A DNA stretch of 60,442 nucleotides from Acidaminococcales bacterium (GCA_031290885.1 JAISLQ010000012.1:1-60442), one strand, 5' to 3'. Positions 56,872 through 60,442 are shown, numbered from the stretch's first letter. A program made the numbers and translations. Notes: a model not told the origin generated them from the sequence alone.

Positions 56872-57072
56872 GATCCGTCAACGCTATCCGAAACATTCAG
56901 ATTTCGAGCGAATTTTTCGTCAGGCGCGGCGCAAAACGCAGGCGAATCCCTATGTTAAGCGCGGCTTTAGCGCAAAGCGCGGCGGGAAACTATCCAAAAG
57001 ATGGGCGTTGGACGGCAGTGTTTACGGCCTAACCCGGCATCTATGCCAAACCAATAAAAAGAGGTGCTTTTT

Positions 57073-58230
57073 TTGCCCAAAATCAAACTGGCGGCTATTT
57101 TCGGCACAAGGCCGGAAGCGATCAAAATGGCGCCCGTAGTGCTGGCAATGAAAAAATATCCGGAATACATCGATCCTTTTGTCATTGTAACCGCCCAGCA
57201 CCGGGAAATGCTTGACCATGTACTGGATCTTTTTCAAATAAGGCCCGATTTTGACCTCAATATCATGACCCAGCGCCAAACGCTTTTTGAAATAAGTATC
57301 CGTGCCCTGCAAGGGCTTGGTGAGGCCCTGGGGGAAATAAAGCCTGACCTGGCGCTTGTGCACGGCGACACGACTACCACCTTTATCGGCGCGCTGGCCG
57401 CTTTTTACCGGCAGATAGAAGTTGGCCACGTGGAAGCGGGGCTGCGTACCGGGAACAAATACTCGCCTTTCCCGGAAGAAATTAACCGCCACCTGACCGG
57501 GAGCTTGGCCGATCTGCATTTTGCCCCCACCAGCGCGGCCCGCGAAAACCTCCTGAAAGAAAACATAGCGGCCGGCAATATTTTTATCACCGGCAATACG
57601 GTAATTGACGCCTTGAAAGCCACCGTGCGCGACGATTATGAGTTTGAGCACCCGGCGCTGCGCGAGTGCGTCACGAAAAAAGCGCGGATCGTCCTCGTTA
57701 CCGCCCACCGCCGCGAAAACCTGGGCGAACCATTGCTCGCCATCTACCGGGCATTGGCCAAAATCGTGGACGGGCATCCCGACATTGAAGTAATTTTTCC
57801 CCTGCATAAAAACCCCGCGGTCCGGGAACCGGCGCAGGCTATCCTGGGCGCGAAAAAGCGCGTACATCTTATCGAGCCTTTGGATTACGGGCCTTTTGTC
57901 AACCTTATGTACAGATCTTATATGCTTTTGAGCGATTCCGGCGGCGTGCAGGAAGAAGCGCCGGCCCTCGGCAAGCCGGTATTGGTTTTGCGCGGCAACA
58001 CCGAGCGGCCGGAAGCGCTCCGGGCCGGCACGGTCAAGCTGGCCGGTACGCATACCGACACTATTTGCCGCCTTGCCCATGAACTGCTGGCCGACCCAAG
58101 CGCCTACAAAGAAATGGCGGAAGCCGTCAACCCTTACGGCGACGGGCTGGCGGCGGAAAGAATTGTCCGCACGATTTTGTTCCGCCGCGCCATCCTGCCG
58201 CAGCCCCCGGAATACTTTCGCGATCATTGA
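57073..58230 (+). CDS. wecB: UDP-N-acetylglucosamine 2-epimerase (non-hydrolysing)
   Basis: FGTRPEAIKMAP, TAQHREML, VHGDTTT, HVEAGLRT, SDSGGVQEEAP, NPYGDG. Confidence 0.96.
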   Translation: MPKIKLAAIFGTRPEAIKMAPVVLAMKKYPEYIDPFVIVTAQHREMLDHVLDLFQIRPDFDLNIMTQRQTLFEISIRALQGLGEALGEIKPDLALVHGDTTTTFIGALAAFYRQIEVGHVEAGLRTGNKYSPFPEEINRHLTGSLADLHFAPTSAARENLLKENIAAGNIFITGNTVIDALKATVRDDYEFEHPALRECVTKKARIVLVTAHRRENLGEPLLAIYRALAKIVDGHPDIEVIFPLHKNPAVREPAQAILGAKKRVHLIEPLDYGPFVNLMYRSYMLLSDSGGVQEEAPALGKPVLVLRGNTERPEALRAGTVKLAGTHTDTICRLAHELLADPSAYKEMAEAVNPYGDGLAAERIVRTILFRRAILPQPPEYFRDH

Positions 58231-58333
58231 ACCTGGCTTCAGCCGACGCGGGACTTGCCTTCCCGCATTGTCAGGGGCAGGAAGCGGCATTGCGGCGGGA
58301 AACGGGAAACCCCTGCTTGGGCAGAGCCCGCTT

Positions 58334-58828
58334 TCATTTTGCGATATAGGCGGCGCCCATAAAGACAACCCCGGCAGCCCAGGCGTTTCTTTGCCACTTA
58401 GCCGCCCGCAGGCGGCTTTTCATTTCTCTCTCGTACGCTTTCAAGGATTGATTGGCACTCTCGATTGAGGACAAGGCACTTTTCAAGCTCTCCTTCAAGC
58501 TCTGTATCTGCGCTTTCGATTGCTCGAGTTCGATCAAGGCCGCCTGCAACTCGGCTTTGAGCGCGGCCAATTCCGTCCTCTGCTCTCCCAGCAAGTTCAA
58601 GGCTTTTAAGAGCGCCGCCTCCTGCCGCGTCAAGTTCTGCTCTAACCGCGCCAGCTCCGTTTCGGTTATCCGGTACTGGCGTTCGGCTGCAAATCCAGTA
58701 AGCGGCCAGCAAAACAAAAGCAAAAAAAGCGGCAATAATACAACATGTTTTTTTGCCCAAATCGAGCAGCAGGCTCCGAACATTGGCGAAGAAACCACGC
58801 GTCCGCGTGGATGCTTGTAACGCGTCAA
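58334..58828 (-). CDS. phage coiled-coil envelope protein (spanin-like, frame B)
   Basis: KKHVVLLPLFLLLFCWPLTGFA signal-like segment, long heptad coiled coil, hydrophobic C-terminus RNAWAAGVVFMGAAYIAK; AAGGAG 10 nt before the TTG. Confidence 0.7.
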   Translation of the reverse strand: MTRYKHPRGRVVSSPMFGACCSIWAKKHVVLLPLFLLLFCWPLTGFAAERQYRITETELARLEQNLTRQEAALLKALNLLGEQRTELAALKAELQAALIELEQSKAQIQSLKESLKSALSSIESANQSLKAYEREMKSRLRAAKWQRNAWAAGVVFMGAAYIAK

Positions 58829-58874
58829 TGGTTCTCATCTCCTTTGCGGCAAATTTTTTGCCGTTTTTGTCCAT
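58398..58874 (-). CDS. phage type II membrane protein (i-spanin-like, frame A), overlapping the previous gene
   Basis: GKK followed by TM CCIIAAFFAFVLLAAYWIC, helical periplasmic domain with ECLVLNRECQSIL. Confidence 0.6.
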   Translation of the reverse strand: MDKNGKKFAAKEMRTIDALQASTRTRGFFANVRSLLLDLGKKTCCIIAAFFAFVLLAAYWICSRTPVPDNRNGAGAVRAELDAAGGGALKSLELAGRAEDGIGRAQSRVAGGLDRTRAIESADTELEGELEKCLVLNRECQSILESVRERNEKPPAGG

Positions 58875-59008
58875 AGGTTGAGCACGGACATGTTCCGCAC
58901 TTTGCGCGCCGCCCCTGCCCGGGGCATTTCATTTTTGTTGTTTTCGCTTCAGCTCAATAGTTAACGGGGCGATTTCCCGGACAGCGGCGCGCTTTTATAC
59001 CTGATTAT

Positions 59009-59539
59009 TTATATGCCGCCCTTTCCGTACCAATTGGCCTTTCCCCGCAAAACCTCTCCCCCGCCCCTCACTATCCCGTCAAAGTCCCTCAGCTTCCACA
59101 GGTCCCAACGCTCAAAGGTGGCGGCCGGCCCGTAGCCGTCAAGGTCGGCAGCCTCGGCGTGGGTCATAAAATATTCCGGCGTTATAGGCGCGTTCAGGCC
59201 CCGCGCCAGCGCGGCCATGGCTTTCGCCGCCGTTTCTATCTGCGCGGCGGTCGGCGGGAAATTGCCGGTAGGCAGGCCGTCCTTGCCCACTCCGGCGTTC
59301 AGGGCGCAGCAGAGGGCTATCCCCACCGCCCCGGAATTGCGCCGCCAAGTGTGTCCGCGATGCAGGCTCAAATCTTCGGAAGGGGCAAATATCCTGCCCC
59401 CGCCATCGATGTTCAGGTGGTAGTCATCGAAAAACTGATCGTAGCGCCCTGCCGTCCAATGCAAATATATGCGCGGTTTCAGGCCGGCCTTGGCATCCCG
59501 CGCCATCTGTTCAAGTTTAGGCATGGTTATTTCAATCAC
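59009..59539 (-). CDS. endolysin, N-acetylmuramoyl-L-alanine amidase (Amidase_2-like), catalytic domain only
   Basis: IYLHWTAG, YHLNIDG, HTWRRNSGAVGIALC, MTHAEAA, ERWDL. Confidence 0.88.
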   Translation of the reverse strand: MIEITMPKLEQMARDAKAGLKPRIYLHWTAGRYDQFFDDYHLNIDGGGRIFAPSEDLSLHRGHTWRRNSGAVGIALCCALNAGVGKDGLPTGNFPPTAAQIETAAKAMAALARGLNAPITPEYFMTHAEAADLDGYGPAATFERWDLWKLRDFDGIVRGGGEVLRGKANWYGKGGI

Positions 59540-60008
59540 TTGCCCCGCCCCCCGTCCTTTGCTCTTTTATATGGCGTATCCGGCGCTGGATGAACTCCGG
59601 GATATACTGCCCGTAGCCCAGTTTGTCGACATTTTCCAAAATGGAAATGGCTTCGTTGGCGGAATAGGCGCAGATGGCCATGCTGCGCAGAACGTGCGTG
59701 CCCATGCCGCAGTCTACAAGGTTGCAGAAAGACACTACCCCCAAGATGGCCGCTTTGTGGCCAATGCCGCGCCTCCCCGCGCCGGAGTTGAGTTCCCCCG
59801 CTTTCCCGGCGGCGGCGATGCCGGTGATATAGTCGAGTGTCATTAGTATGGCAAGGGCGTGCAGGGCGTTGTCGAGTCCGCCGAACAGGAAGCTCAAAGC
59901 CGCCCCAACGGACGCGCCAATTCCCATTGCCGCCTGTTCCGGGCGGCTTTGCGGCAGGAGCGTTCCTGCCGCTCCTTTAAGCGTCGTGAAAAATTCTTGC
60001 AGCGTCAT
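59532..60008 (-). CDS. phage holin (holin_4 / toxin-secretion holin family)
   Basis: LMTLDYITG, LNS..GRRGI.HK, NEAISILEN; overlaps the amidase start. Confidence 0.9.
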   Translation of the reverse strand: MTLQEFFTTLKGAAGTLLPQSRPEQAAMGIGASVGAALSFLFGGLDNALHALAILMTLDYITGIAAAGKAGELNSGAGRRGIGHKAAILGVVSFCNLVDCGMGTHVLRSMAICAYSANEAISILENVDKLGYGQYIPEFIQRRIRHIKEQRTGGGASD

Positions 60009-60080
60009 TTTGTTTTCAGTCCTTTCGTGCGTTGTTGTTTCCGGGCATGAAAAAACCCCATGCTTTGGGCAAGGGGCTTG

Positions 60081-60089
60081 TGGTATAAT
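60081..60089 (+). promoter_or_regulatory. extended -10 promoter for the type I toxin mRNA
   Basis: TG-G-TATAAT. Confidence 0.7.
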
Positions 60090-60189
60090 GCTTTTAAGGC
60101 GTTGCGATAACGGTAGGCGGTCAATCCTGCCCCGGAAACGGGGTGATTGACCCGTCCTCGAATGGGCGAGCTTGCCTCGCCGGAGAGGG

Positions 60190-60258
60190 GTGGACTATTA
60201 CAAGCTGGTGTTTCTGCTGGTCTTGCTTTTAGCCGTGATAGTTGCTGTAAAAAAGTAA
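60190..60258 (+). CDS. 22-aa hydrophobic type I toxin peptide MDYYKLVFLLVLLLAVIVAVKK
   Basis: GGAGAGG RBS, GTG start, one TM helix with terminal KK; below the ORF-track cut-off. Confidence 0.75.
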   Translation: MDYYKLVFLLVLLLAVIVAVKK

Positions 60259-60295
60259 CTAACCGCCATTCCCTCACAAGGTAGCGGTTAGTTAC
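60249..60295 (-). terminator. intrinsic terminator of the antisense RNA
   Basis: Minus strand GTAACTAACCGC...GCGGTTAGTTAC followed by TTTTTT. Confidence 0.8.
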
Positions 60296-60341
60296 TAACC
60301 AAAACTGTACGGGGCGGCCGCTTATCGGCAACGCCTTTTCT
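60249..60341 (-). ncRNA. putative antisense antitoxin RNA (about 90 nt)
   Basis: Bounded by a consensus promoter and an intrinsic terminator; overlaps the toxin stop codon and 3' UTR. Confidence 0.7.
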
Positions 60342-60347
60342 ATGCCC

Positions 60348-60376
60348 ATTGTACCCTGTTTTTTAAGGGCTGTCAA
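60348..60376 (-). promoter_or_regulatory. consensus promoter for the antitoxin RNA
   Basis: TTGACA (60376-60371) - 17 nt - TACAAT (60353-60348). Confidence 0.85.
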
Positions 60377-60442
60377 CTGCCCGGCCGTTTTGCCCGCCGG
60401 CAAGCTACGCCGGCTGTTCCCCCGCATTGTTGCCTTCCGCCG

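What the first reader, a model, noticed from the sequence alone, without database searches (positions are those of the whole stretch)
58334..58874. Dual-coding spanin-like gene pair: about 430 bp read in two frames
Seen: 58398-58874 and 58334-58828 overlap across 58398-58828 on the same strand, and both look like real proteins. The same DNA (about 58680-58750) encodes a hydrophobic segment in both frames (CCIIAAFFAFVLLAAYWIC and VVLLPLFLLLFCWPLTGFA). Frame A is a type II membrane protein with two periplasmic Cys. Frame B has a signal-like N-terminus, a long coiled coil and a hydrophobic C-terminus, but no canonical lipobox. Established: embedded or overlapping Rz/Rz1 spanins follow holin-endolysin in proteobacterial phages, where the o-spanin is a lipoprotein. 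Inference: a non-lipoprotein two-component outer-membrane disruption system for diderm-Firmicute phages.
Basis: partly seen in the sequence, partly recalled or inferred. Interest (0 to 1): 0.75.

Follow-up and report, generated by a model that had tools for sequence, protein, structure and literature searches.

The report
Dual-frame spanin-like phage lysis genes
A 431-base stretch at the end of a prophage's lysis genes, in a Firmicute that has an outer membrane, is read in two frames to make two different membrane-anchored helical proteins; both are conserved in related prophages, and the pair is the best candidate for how these phages break an outer membrane without the usual lipoprotein.

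Summary
Two ORFs on the minus strand share 431 nt: A (58398-58874) and B (58334-58828, frame +1 relative to A). They lie downstream of a holin and an Amidase_2 endolysin, at the host junction of a prophage.

Both frames are real genes:
- Frame A has no stop in any of 31 representatives under 75% identical in B. The other four alternative frames are open in 0 to 4 of 31.
- The chance of an open A frame, given the B protein, is 6e-5 to 3e-2 per locus.
- Between clades, A is about as conserved as B (mean z 3.5 against a B-only null).
- In most clades one Shine-Dalgarno serves two start codons 2-7 nt apart.

A has an N-terminal membrane helix followed by one 79-residue helix. Its lipobox cysteine is not conserved. 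B has a cleavable-looking signal peptide, then one 108-residue helix ending in a short (about 15 aa) hydrophobic anchor.

The family occurs in 99 of 401 genomes of the host's class. Outside the class it occurs in 1 of about 388, and that genome also has LpxC. It follows endolysins of five unrelated families. The host has LpxC and lacks LolA.

The best reading is a lipoprotein-free, spanin-like outer-membrane disruption pair. That function is inferred, not shown. I found no paper on it; earlier notes of this scan describe the same family.

The parts
59532..60008 (-). Holin (158 aa)
   Evidence: PF05105 Phage_holin_4_1, E 4e-29; phrog_199 holin
59009..59539 (-). Endolysin, N-acetylmuramoyl-L-alanine amidase (176 aa); its start overlaps the holin's 3' end
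   Evidence: PF01510 Amidase_2, E 7e-8; phrog_5867 endolysin, E 1.5e-29
59004..59033 (-). Sigma-70-like promoter match (TTGGTA-18-AATAAT) inside the endolysin's 3' end. It could drive A/B. Weak evidence.
   Evidence: 1 site found against 0.3 expected
58839..58844 (-). Shine-Dalgarno AAGGAG, 10 nt upstream of B's TTG. It abuts the A-frame ATG at 58838.
   Evidence: Read from the sequence. The homologous position holds an SD in L001, L002, L089, L102 and L096.
58398..58874 (-). The likely start is ATG 58838 (146 aa) or ATT 58829. It encodes an N-in/C-out single-pass membrane protein with one long periplasmic helix.
   Evidence: The frame is open in all homologous loci. It is under purifying selection. 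AF2 gives pLDDT 88, a TM helix and a 79-residue helix. 116 unnamed clusters of homologues are called as genes elsewhere.
58686..58748 (-). A transmembrane segment TCCIIAAFFAFVLLAAYWICS (21 aa). The same DNA encodes B's signal-peptide h-region.
   Evidence: family median 21 aa. The lipobox Cys is not conserved in the family.
58632..58676 (-). A motif 1, VPDNRNGAGAVRAEL (membrane-proximal). It overlaps B motif 1.
   Evidence: Alignments A3 and A4
58422..58460 (-). A motif 2, ECQSILESVRERN (distal end of A, with the conserved Cys). This is the most conserved part of A.
   Evidence: I143, R148 and R150 are nearly invariant. C[QREK].I[LI] is present in 23 of 31. Entropy of B3 (=A1) is 0.2-0.55 here.
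58334..58828 (-). Gene B (164 aa, TTG start): signal peptide, long coiled-coil helix, basic cluster, short C-terminal hydrophobic anchor
   Evidence: Homologues P0001-P0003. At least 624 50%-identity clusters at E<=1e-10. AF2 gives pLDDT 86 with a single helix over residues 56-163.
58688..58744 (-). B signal-peptide h-region VVLLPLFLLLFCWPLTGFA, with an AxA-type site (GFA|AE)
   Evidence: Small residues at -3/-1 in the B N-termini read by eye (not tabulated). The F/L/C/W/S-rich composition is as expected opposite a TM segment in frame A.
58631..58684 (-). B motif 1, ERQYRITETELARLEQNL (predicted mature N-terminus). This is the most conserved part of B.
   Evidence: Y52, I54, E58, L59 and L62 are invariant or nearly so
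58385..58420 (-). B basic cluster plus QRN (KSRLRAAKWQRN), directly before the anchor
   Evidence: Q, R and N conserved
58340..58384 (-). B C-terminal hydrophobic anchor AWAAGVVFMGAAYIA (15 aa), followed by a terminal K. This part of B is not overlapped by A.
   Evidence: family median 15 aa, range 11-16. B3 entropy is 1.71 here against 1.38 in the overlap.
58755..58823 (-). Insertion of about 69 nt (23 codons, approximate limits) specific to the window, relative to L001 and L002. It lengthens A's cytoplasmic tail and B's n-region and keeps both frames open.
   Evidence: Alignments A2 and A3

Best explanation
The stretch 58334-58874 (minus strand) holds two real genes that share 431 nt in two reading frames. 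They are the last genes of a prophage lysis cassette (holin, amidase endolysin, A/B) in an LPS-bearing Firmicute of the class Negativicutes.

Shown:
- Both frames are under purifying selection across a large prophage family.
- In most clades one ribosome-binding site serves two start codons 2-7 nt apart, so both proteins would be made together.
- The same DNA encodes both membrane-targeting segments and two heptad patterns that are in register.

Predicted:
- A is an N-in/C-out membrane protein with a 21-aa TM segment and then one helix of about 12 nm.
- B is exported with a cleavable signal peptide. It is one helix of about 13-16 nm that ends in a basic cluster and a short (about 15 aa) hydrophobic anchor.

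Inferred:
- After the holin and endolysin have removed the peptidoglycan, A and B act together as a spanin equivalent that disrupts or fuses the outer membrane.
- They do so without an outer-membrane lipoprotein, in hosts that lack the Lol pathway.
- Each protein's most conserved motif lies at the end farthest from its own anchor. Those ends are therefore the likely working or contact sites.

My confidence is about 0.95 that the dual coding is real and about 0.55-0.6 that the function is outer-membrane disruption.
For: Dual coding:
- Frame A is open in all 61 loci from metagenomes and genomes and in about 28 more divergent genome loci.
- In 31 representatives, frame A has zero stops in 31/31, against 0-4 of 31 for the other alternative frames.
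- P(open A | B protein) is 6e-5 to 3e-2 per locus, and T-ending codons are depleted (6-15% against 14-31% in the locus).
- A identity between clades is about equal to B identity. For L002 against L003 it is 33/94 in A and 31/94 in B, with a null of 15.5 +/- 2.9. Mean z is 3.5 over 40 pairs.
- Entropy at B's third codon position is 1.38 in the overlap and 1.71 in the B-only tail.
- In the Dialister clade, differences per site at B1/B2/B3 are .045/.085/.123 in the overlap and .172/.186/.358 in the tail.
- A decayed second copy in L002 has both frames broken.
- One SD serves paired starts.
- A homologues are called as genes in 116 clusters.

Lysis role:
- The pair lies downstream of the holin and endolysin in the window.
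- The upstream ORF is a peptidoglycan hydrolase in 20 of 30 representatives: GH25 in 8, Amidase_2 in 5, Amidase_3 in 4, M15 in 2 and Rv2525c-like in 1. The gap to B's start is at most 20 nt in 18 of 30.

Link to the outer membrane:
- 99 of 401 genomes of the class carry the family, in 39 of 110 genera and often in 2-4 copies.
- Outside the class, in the same phylum, there was one real hit among about 388 genomes. That genome has LpxC.
- The host genome has LpxC and LspA but no LolA.
- Negativicutes lack LolA and LolB (PMC5007114).

Topology and shape: AF2 models; a conserved distal Cys in A in 23 of 31; weak hits of both proteins to Rz-like spanin PHROGs.
Against: - There is no experiment and no transcript or proteome data for this locus. 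No sequencing run could be found.
- The PHROG matches to Rz-like families are weak (E 1e-3 to 3e-4). They are of the kind any TM-plus-coiled-coil protein gives.
- There is no Pfam family for either protein.
- By ordinary sorting rules both proteins would end up in the inner membrane, so no outer-membrane anchor has been identified.
- B's basic cluster lies on the periplasmic side of its anchor, which goes against the positive-inside rule.
- In the window's own clade the pair is not coupled to the endolysin. In L001 and L002, 1.4-3.4 kb of unrelated genes lie in between.
- A has no canonical start in L001 and L096.
- One locus (L005) lies in a MAG without LpxC.
- The contig ends at 60442, so it is unknown whether the prophage is complete.
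Confidence: 0.58

Rival explanations
1. The pair is real and dual-coded, but its job is not outer-membrane disruption. It could regulate the holin or lysis timing (like an antiholin or XhlA-type accessory). Or it could be a prophage 'moron' acting at the membrane, for example in superinfection exclusion.
For: Both proteins look inner-membrane anchored. In the window's clade the pair is detached from the endolysin by inserted genes and sits at the prophage-host junction, where morons accumulate. A promoter-like site lies just upstream. There is no significant homology to spanins.
Against: Holin regulators and exclusion proteins would not be expected to be confined to hosts with an outer membrane. 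Yet the family is found in 99 of 401 genomes of the class and in 1 of about 388 elsewhere, and that one has LpxC. In most clades the pair is tightly coupled to the endolysin's stop codon, whichever of five endolysin families is present. No other spanin candidate lies in the window between the endolysin and the host gene.
Confidence: 0.22
2. Only B is a gene. Frame A is open because a GC-rich coiled-coil gene has few stops in its alternative frames.
For: The window is about 57% GC. An antisense ORF of 122 aa also overlaps. A search with A as a single protein found nothing. A's heptad pattern is partly a by-product of B's Leu codons.
Against: Frame A is open in 31 of 31 diverse representatives, including loci with 41-50% GC. 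The other alternative frames are open in 0-4 of 31. P is 6e-5 to 3e-2 per locus. A is conserved about as strongly as B. Some A positions are conserved where B's own first and second codon positions vary (columns 197-206). A has its own TM segment, motifs and well-spaced SD and ATG.
Confidence: 0.03
3. There is one protein, not two. A sequencing error or a programmed +1 frameshift at the T7 run (58722-58728) would join A's N-terminus to B's C-terminus.
For: A run of seven T lies in the shared hydrophobic segment. One low-coverage contig (L059) does show an A-to-B fusion.
Against: Both full-length frames, each with its own start and its own stop, are kept in more than 85 independent assemblies. 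The T run is not conserved among them. B's start has a good SD, and its N-terminus is conserved as MTR[KY].
Confidence: 0.02
4. In this particular genome the cassette is a leftover of a defective prophage and the pair is no longer used, whatever the family does elsewhere.
For: The contig ends 434 nt upstream of the holin. A decayed copy of the pair sits at exactly this position, next to the epimerase gene, in the related MAG (L002:3840-4280). The window's copy carries a 69-nt insertion and has an unclear A start.
Against: The holin, the endolysin, A and B are all intact, and every family motif is kept. Within the window's clade the sites that differ show the pattern expected of two constrained frames.
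Confidence: 0.15

Closest known systems
Lambda Rz/Rz1, two-component spanin with embedded genes (Kongari et al. 2018, PMC6139136)
   Same: It is the last element of a holin-endolysin cassette in a host with an outer membrane. It consists of two envelope proteins encoded by overlapping genes in different frames. One partner (A) has the i-spanin layout, with an N-terminal TM segment and a helical periplasmic domain. Periplasmic Cys are frequent. Gene callers routinely miss one of the two genes.
   Different: There is no outer-membrane lipoprotein. B has a signal peptidase I-type signal, and the lipobox Cys of A is not conserved. The overlap covers nearly the whole of both genes (about 110-145 codons), not a 60-codon insert. 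The two starts are adjacent and share one SD. The second partner is a 125-165 aa coiled coil with a C-terminal anchor, not a short Pro-rich lipoprotein. There is no significant sequence similarity.
P2 LysB/LysC, two-component spanin with overlapped genes
   Same: Same-strand overlap of two lysis-cassette membrane proteins in different frames.
   Different: In P2 only the 3' end of lysB overlaps the 5' end of lysC, and LysC is a lipoprotein. Here the two genes are almost co-extensive and neither product is a consistent lipoprotein.
T1 gp11, unimolecular spanin
   Same: B has the same end-to-end layout: an N-terminal secretion signal and a C-terminal hydrophobic anchor.
   Different: gp11 needs a lipobox to attach to the outer membrane, its periplasmic part is predicted to be mostly beta, and it acts alone. 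B has no lipobox, is a single long alpha helix, and always comes with A.
PBSX XhlA (PF10779), a lysis-cassette accessory protein of Bacillus prophages
   Same: A small coiled-coil protein with a C-terminal membrane anchor, encoded in a Firmicute prophage lysis cassette.
   Different: There is no Pfam match. XhlA has no signal peptide, no overlapping partner, and occurs in hosts without an outer membrane.

Membership tests
Two-component spanin (Rz/Rz1 type) | Encoded in or next to the holin-endolysin lysis cassette | tested here: met
   The window order is holin, amidase, A/B. The upstream ORF is a peptidoglycan hydrolase in 20 of 30 representatives.
Two-component spanin (Rz/Rz1 type) | The host has an outer membrane | tested here: met
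   LpxC is present in the host genome, in G224, in G350 and in the Dialister genome. The family is confined to the class, in 99 of 401 genomes. One exception is unresolved: L005.
Two-component spanin (Rz/Rz1 type) | i-spanin: an N-terminal TM segment (N-in/C-out) and a helical, coiled-coil periplasmic domain | tested here: met
   A has a 21-aa TM segment followed by one 79-residue helix at pLDDT above 90. It has a heptad pattern.
Two-component spanin (Rz/Rz1 type) | o-spanin: an outer-membrane lipoprotein with a lipobox and an acylated Cys | tested here: not met
   B has AxA or CSA-type signal peptidase I sites and no lipobox. A's lipobox-like Cys is present in some clades (VAGC, LAGGC) but replaced by F, G or W, or absent, in others, including the window's clade. 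The host lacks LolA.
Two-component spanin (Rz/Rz1 type) | Sequence homology to a described spanin family | tested here: inconclusive
   There are only weak PHROG hits: phrog_214, 89, 739 and 8821, with E 3e-4 to 8e-2. There is no Pfam hit and no hit in 50,697 phage records.
Two-component spanin (Rz/Rz1 type) | Required for disruption of the outer membrane at lysis | not testable with these tools
   This needs genetics in an inducible lysogen.
Unimolecular spanin (T1 gp11 type) | An N-terminal lipoprotein signal and a C-terminal TM segment in one protein, acting alone | tested here: not met
   B has a signal and a C-terminal anchor but no lipobox. The anchor is only about 15 aa, and B is always co-encoded with A.
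Overlapping (dual-coding) genes | Both frames are kept open and both are under purifying selection in relatives | tested here: met
   A decayed copy serves as a natural control.
XhlA (PF10779) | Match to the family model | tested here: not met
   No match for the window's B or for 31 family members.

The most novel reading that the evidence does not exclude
Prophages of Negativicutes, which have an outer membrane but no Lol pathway, would use a third kind of spanin that needs no lipoprotein. Two unrelated single-helix proteins are translated from the same codons in two frames, from one ribosome-binding site. Their heptads are in register on the DNA (r = 0.45 at lag 0).

One geometry is a parallel pairing. 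It would put A's TM segment and B's short, basic-flanked C-terminal anchor at opposite ends, giving a bridge from inner to outer membrane in the manner of SNAREs. The other is an antiparallel pairing. It would bring the two most conserved motifs together at a tip facing the outer membrane, in the manner of a viral fusion protein.

A may have arisen by overprinting, because reading a leucine zipper one base earlier (A's frame relative to B) automatically gives another amphipathic helix.
Probability: 0.45. Interest if true: 0.85.

Novelty: new variant of a known kind. Interest (0 to 1): 0.7.

Why it matters
How phages escape from Firmicutes that have an outer membrane is not described. I found no paper that links spanins with Negativicutes, Veillonella or their lysis cassettes. 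The standard spanin search requires an outer-membrane lipoprotein signal (PMC6139136), and these hosts have no known means of sorting such a protein (PMC5007114).

If the pair does this job, three things follow:
- It defines a lipoprotein-independent way of breaching an outer membrane.
- It gives a handle on the envelope biology of Negativicutes such as Veillonella, Dialister and Acidaminococcales, which are common in the gut and mouth.
- It is one of the most extensive cases known to me of two conserved proteins encoded by the same bacterial-virus DNA. The overlap is about 110-145 codons, with shared targeting signals and shared heptad positions.

There is also a practical point. Gene callers report only one of the two genes, sometimes A and sometimes B, so one of the two is missing at every locus whose gene calls I inspected.

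Tried and rejected
1. A search with A as a single protein found no homologue. This reflects gene calling, not absence: a profile of A found 116 clusters.
2. A frameshift or sequencing error at the T7 run is rejected, because both full frames are conserved everywhere.
3. A as the lipoprotein o-spanin looked attractive at first, with lipoboxes in L003, L005, L009-L012 and Dialister. It is rejected as a family feature, because the Cys is lost in whole subclades (C to W in L020-24) and is absent in the window's clade and many genome loci.
4. B's N-terminal hydrophobic segment as a mere by-product of A's TM segment, with B being a cytoplasmic tail-anchored protein, is judged unlikely. In many loci B opens with Met and K/R directly after a stop codon, and the sites are AxA-type. 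It is not excluded.
5. A and B as diverged paralogues: hhalign probability is 14%.
6. Three B proteins searched by tblastn against isolated phage genomes gave no match.
7. No public sequencing run could be listed for the stretch.
8. Fold searches were not run, because single long helices give meaningless matches.
9. I looked for a 'separated' gene arrangement. None was seen in the loci inspected, but this was not surveyed systematically.

Full report
**What is there.**
- A is 58398-58874 (158 aa from ATG).
- B is 58334-58828 (164 aa from TTG).
- B is in frame +1 relative to A, and they share 431 nt.

Read along the minus strand, the upstream genes are a holin (59532-60008, PF05105, E 4e-29) and an Amidase_2 endolysin (59009-59539). 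Downstream, about 100 nt after B's stop, the host UDP-GlcNAc 2-epimerase gene ends on the other strand (57064-58230). The pair is therefore the last thing in a prophage lysis cassette, at the prophage-host junction. The contig ends at 60442, so the rest of the prophage cannot be seen. The window is about 57% GC, so open alternative frames are not rare, and the overlap needed a real test.

**Relatives.** B found three proteins. A as a single protein found none. In the three contigs encoding the B homologues, the frame one base upstream of B is also open. In the distant L003 (35% identity in B) it encodes a similar protein.

Pattern scans gave 5 genome loci, 1 viral locus and 52 metagenome loci. 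Whole-genome searches gave about 28 more divergent loci. Organism names on the records are an Acidaminococcales MAG and Dialister. The MAG shares the window's host flank: the epimerase gene is 88.6% identical.

**Is frame A more than chance?**
- *Openness.* Stop to stop, frame A is open over 110-145 codons in every locus. In 31 representatives under 75% identical in B it has no stop in 31/31. The other sense frame and the three antisense frames are open in 0, 0, 1 and 4 of 31, with mean stop counts of 11.4, 8.6, 2.7 and 2.3.
- *Expected openness.* An exact calculation over synonymous codons gives P(A open | B protein, locus codon usage) = 1.5e-3 for the window and 6e-5 to 3e-2 for the others. 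Even with the gene's own skewed usage, P is 1-8e-2 per locus.
- *Codon bias.* T-ending codons, the only ones that can create a stop in frame A, are depleted to 6-15% against 14-31% in the loci.
- *Conservation between clades.* A-frame identity is about as high as B identity. For L002 against L003 it is 33/94 in A and 31/94 in B. If only B were constrained, 15.5 +/- 2.9 would be expected. Over 40 pairs from different clades the mean z is 3.5.
- *Entropy by codon position.* Entropy at B's third position, which is A's first, is 1.38 bits in the overlap and 1.71 in the 21 codons of B that A does not cover. In A's C-terminal motif several such positions are nearly fixed (0.2-0.55 bits) while B's own first and second positions vary.
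- *Within the Dialister clade.* Differences per site at B1/B2/B3 are .045/.085/.123 in the overlap and .172/.186/.358 in the tail.
- *A natural control.* The related MAG has a second, decayed copy exactly where the window's copy sits. It has a frameshift and a nonsense codon, so without selection both frames break.

I conclude that the dual coding is real.

**Starts.** In most clades the two start codons lie 2-7 nt apart behind one Shine-Dalgarno. For example, GGAGG is followed after 7 nt by A's ATG and after 11 nt by B's ATG in L025, L029, L055, L058, L084 and L087. AGGAGG is followed after 4 nt by B's ATG and after 6 nt by A's GTG in L079 and L094. In Dialister, A has GGAG-7-ATG inside the endolysin's 3' end, and B's ATG overlaps the endolysin's stop codon.

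The window belongs to a subfamily with L001, L002, L089, L102 and L096. It has a conserved A-TTG-A: B starts at TTG, 9-10 nt after the SD, and an A-frame ATT overlaps it. L001 and L096 have no canonical A start at all, and L096 has an A-frame stop four codons upstream. Initiation at AUU or AUC is therefore inferred there.

In the window an A-frame ATG at 58838 directly abuts the SD (58839-58844). The ATG at 58874 has no SD. So A probably starts at 58838 or 58829, not at 58874.

**The proteins.**
- *A.* It has a short basic N-terminus and a 21-aa TM segment (family median 21). A loop follows with [VI][PS]D.G..A..VR.EL, then one long helix (79 residues, pLDDT above 90) ending in [ED]CQ.IL..[VI]R.RG. 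The Cys in that motif is present in 23 of 31.
- *A is not a consistent lipoprotein.* A lipobox-like Cys at the end of the TM segment occurs in some clades (VAGC, VLSSC, LAGGC). In others it is replaced by F, G or W, or is absent. The window has YWIC. As a family, A is a type II membrane protein.
- *B.* In many loci it begins with Met and K/R directly after a stop codon. It has an h-region rich in F, L, C and W, and a site with small residues at -3 and -1 (GFA|AE in the window). The most conserved motif, E.TYQITE.EL..LE.NL, lies at the predicted mature N-terminus. Next comes a single uninterrupted helix (residues 56-163, pLDDT 96-98) with a second motif AN.SL..YE.E.K, a basic cluster, QRN, a hydrophobic stretch of only 11-16 residues (median 15), and a terminal K.
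- *No family assignment.* Neither protein matches a Pfam family, and the two are not related to each other.

**How one DNA encodes both.** A residue is hydrophobic in A when its codon has T at position 2. That base is position 1 of B's codon, which limits B to F, L, S, Y, C or W. This is exactly the odd composition of B's signal peptide.

In the helices, B's Leu is TTR in 60% of cases. At B-Leu codons A has I, L, V, F or A in 89% of cases. The two hydrophobicity profiles correlate at lag 0 (r = 0.45) and at +/-7 codons (about 0.3), so the two heptad patterns are in register on the DNA. This also suggests how one frame could have arisen by overprinting the other. That last point is inference.

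**Function.**
- *Link to lysis.* In 20 of 30 representatives the ORF just upstream is a peptidoglycan hydrolase, drawn from five unrelated families. In 18 of 30 the gap to B's start is at most 20 nt.
- *Link to the outer membrane.* The B profile matches 99 of 401 genomes sampled from the host's class (39 of 110 genera), often in 2-4 copies. Among about 388 genomes from the rest of the phylum there was one real match, G350. G350 has LpxC, and its locus also has the A frame.
- *The host.* The window's genome has LpxC and LspA but no LolA. This agrees with the published absence of LolA and LolB in Negativicutes (PMC5007114).
- *Similarity to spanins.* Both proteins give weak hits to Rz-like spanin PHROGs. 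I treat these as a resemblance in layout, not as homology.
- *No alternative candidate.* No other candidate spanin lies between the endolysin and the host gene.

Together this makes a spanin-equivalent role the best explanation, but every functional step is inferred.

The main difficulty is that no outer-membrane anchor is evident. Two geometries fit the data. An antiparallel pair, with both proteins in the inner membrane, would bring A's C-terminal motif and B's N-terminal motif together at a distal tip. A parallel pair would put the two anchors at opposite ends, with B's short, basic-flanked anchor in the outer membrane.

**Caveats specific to the window.**
- The pair is about 180 nt from the endolysin (134 nt if A starts at 58874).
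- In the closest relatives, unrelated genes lie between the endolysin and the pair.
- The window's copy has a 69-nt in-frame insertion.
- A decayed copy occupies the same site in a related genome.
- All family motifs and both frames are intact here.

**Comparison with what is known.** The closest systems are the embedded (lambda Rz/Rz1) and overlapped (P2 LysB/LysC) two-component spanins and the unimolecular spanin T1 gp11 (PMC6139136). The pair shares their place in the cassette, the gene overlap and the i-spanin layout of A. It fails the defining lipoprotein feature, so I do not file it as a member.

I found no paper describing it and no homologue in 50,697 isolated-phage records. The B family has at least 624 50%-identity clusters at E<=1e-10, and the A family has 116 unnamed clusters.

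Earlier notes of this scan describe the same family in Veillonella, Phascolarctobacterium and Dialister prophages and read it the same way. I consulted them only after forming my own reading, and they are not independent evidence.

Noticed in passing
L002:3840-4280 (Acidaminococcales MAG JAISPA010000172.1): A second, decayed copy of the A/B pair lies directly next to the host epimerase gene, in the same position as the window's intact copy. It has a frameshift that joins the N-terminal half of B to the C-terminal half of A, and a stop codon in B's anchor. It is 77.7% identical to window 58325-58722. This suggests repeated prophage integration at this site.
   Followed up: partly
window 58452-58820 (+): A 122-aa antisense ORF overlaps both genes and is also open in L002. 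Across 31 relatives the antisense frames carry stops (open in 0, 1 and 4 of 31), so it looks like a by-product of composition.
   Followed up: yes
L059, L052, L056: L059 (coverage about 2x) has a frameshift that fuses A's N-terminus to B's C-terminus. In L052 and L056, B is truncated and A is extended. These are assembly errors or decaying copies. I excluded them from the statistics.
   Followed up: no
window 60324-60442 and L001:1-119: The last 119 bases of the contig are 100% identical to the start of a JGI metagenome contig (3300042652) that carries a related holin-amidase-A/B prophage end. That contig might help extend the truncated prophage.
   Followed up: no
L005 (MAG labelled Ruminococcus sp., JAJQGO010000045.1): One intact A/B locus lies in a genome bin without LpxC. 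The surrounding 8 kb is phage-like (LPD38, a VgrG3-like lysozyme, DUF7841) and has no host marker. It may be a mis-binned phage contig or a true exception to the outer-membrane host rule.
   Followed up: partly
L020-L024, L026, L038 (Dialister-like subclade): A single base change turns A's lipobox Cys into Trp (TGC to TGG). The same change alters B's signal-peptidase -1 residue from Ala to Gly. One mutation is therefore tolerated in both proteins, which argues against obligatory acylation of A.
   Followed up: partly
window 60005-60442 (-): A 140-aa ORF upstream of the holin runs to the contig end. I did not assign it a function. Another first-reader note proposes a type I toxin-antitoxin locus in 60081-60376.
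   Followed up: no
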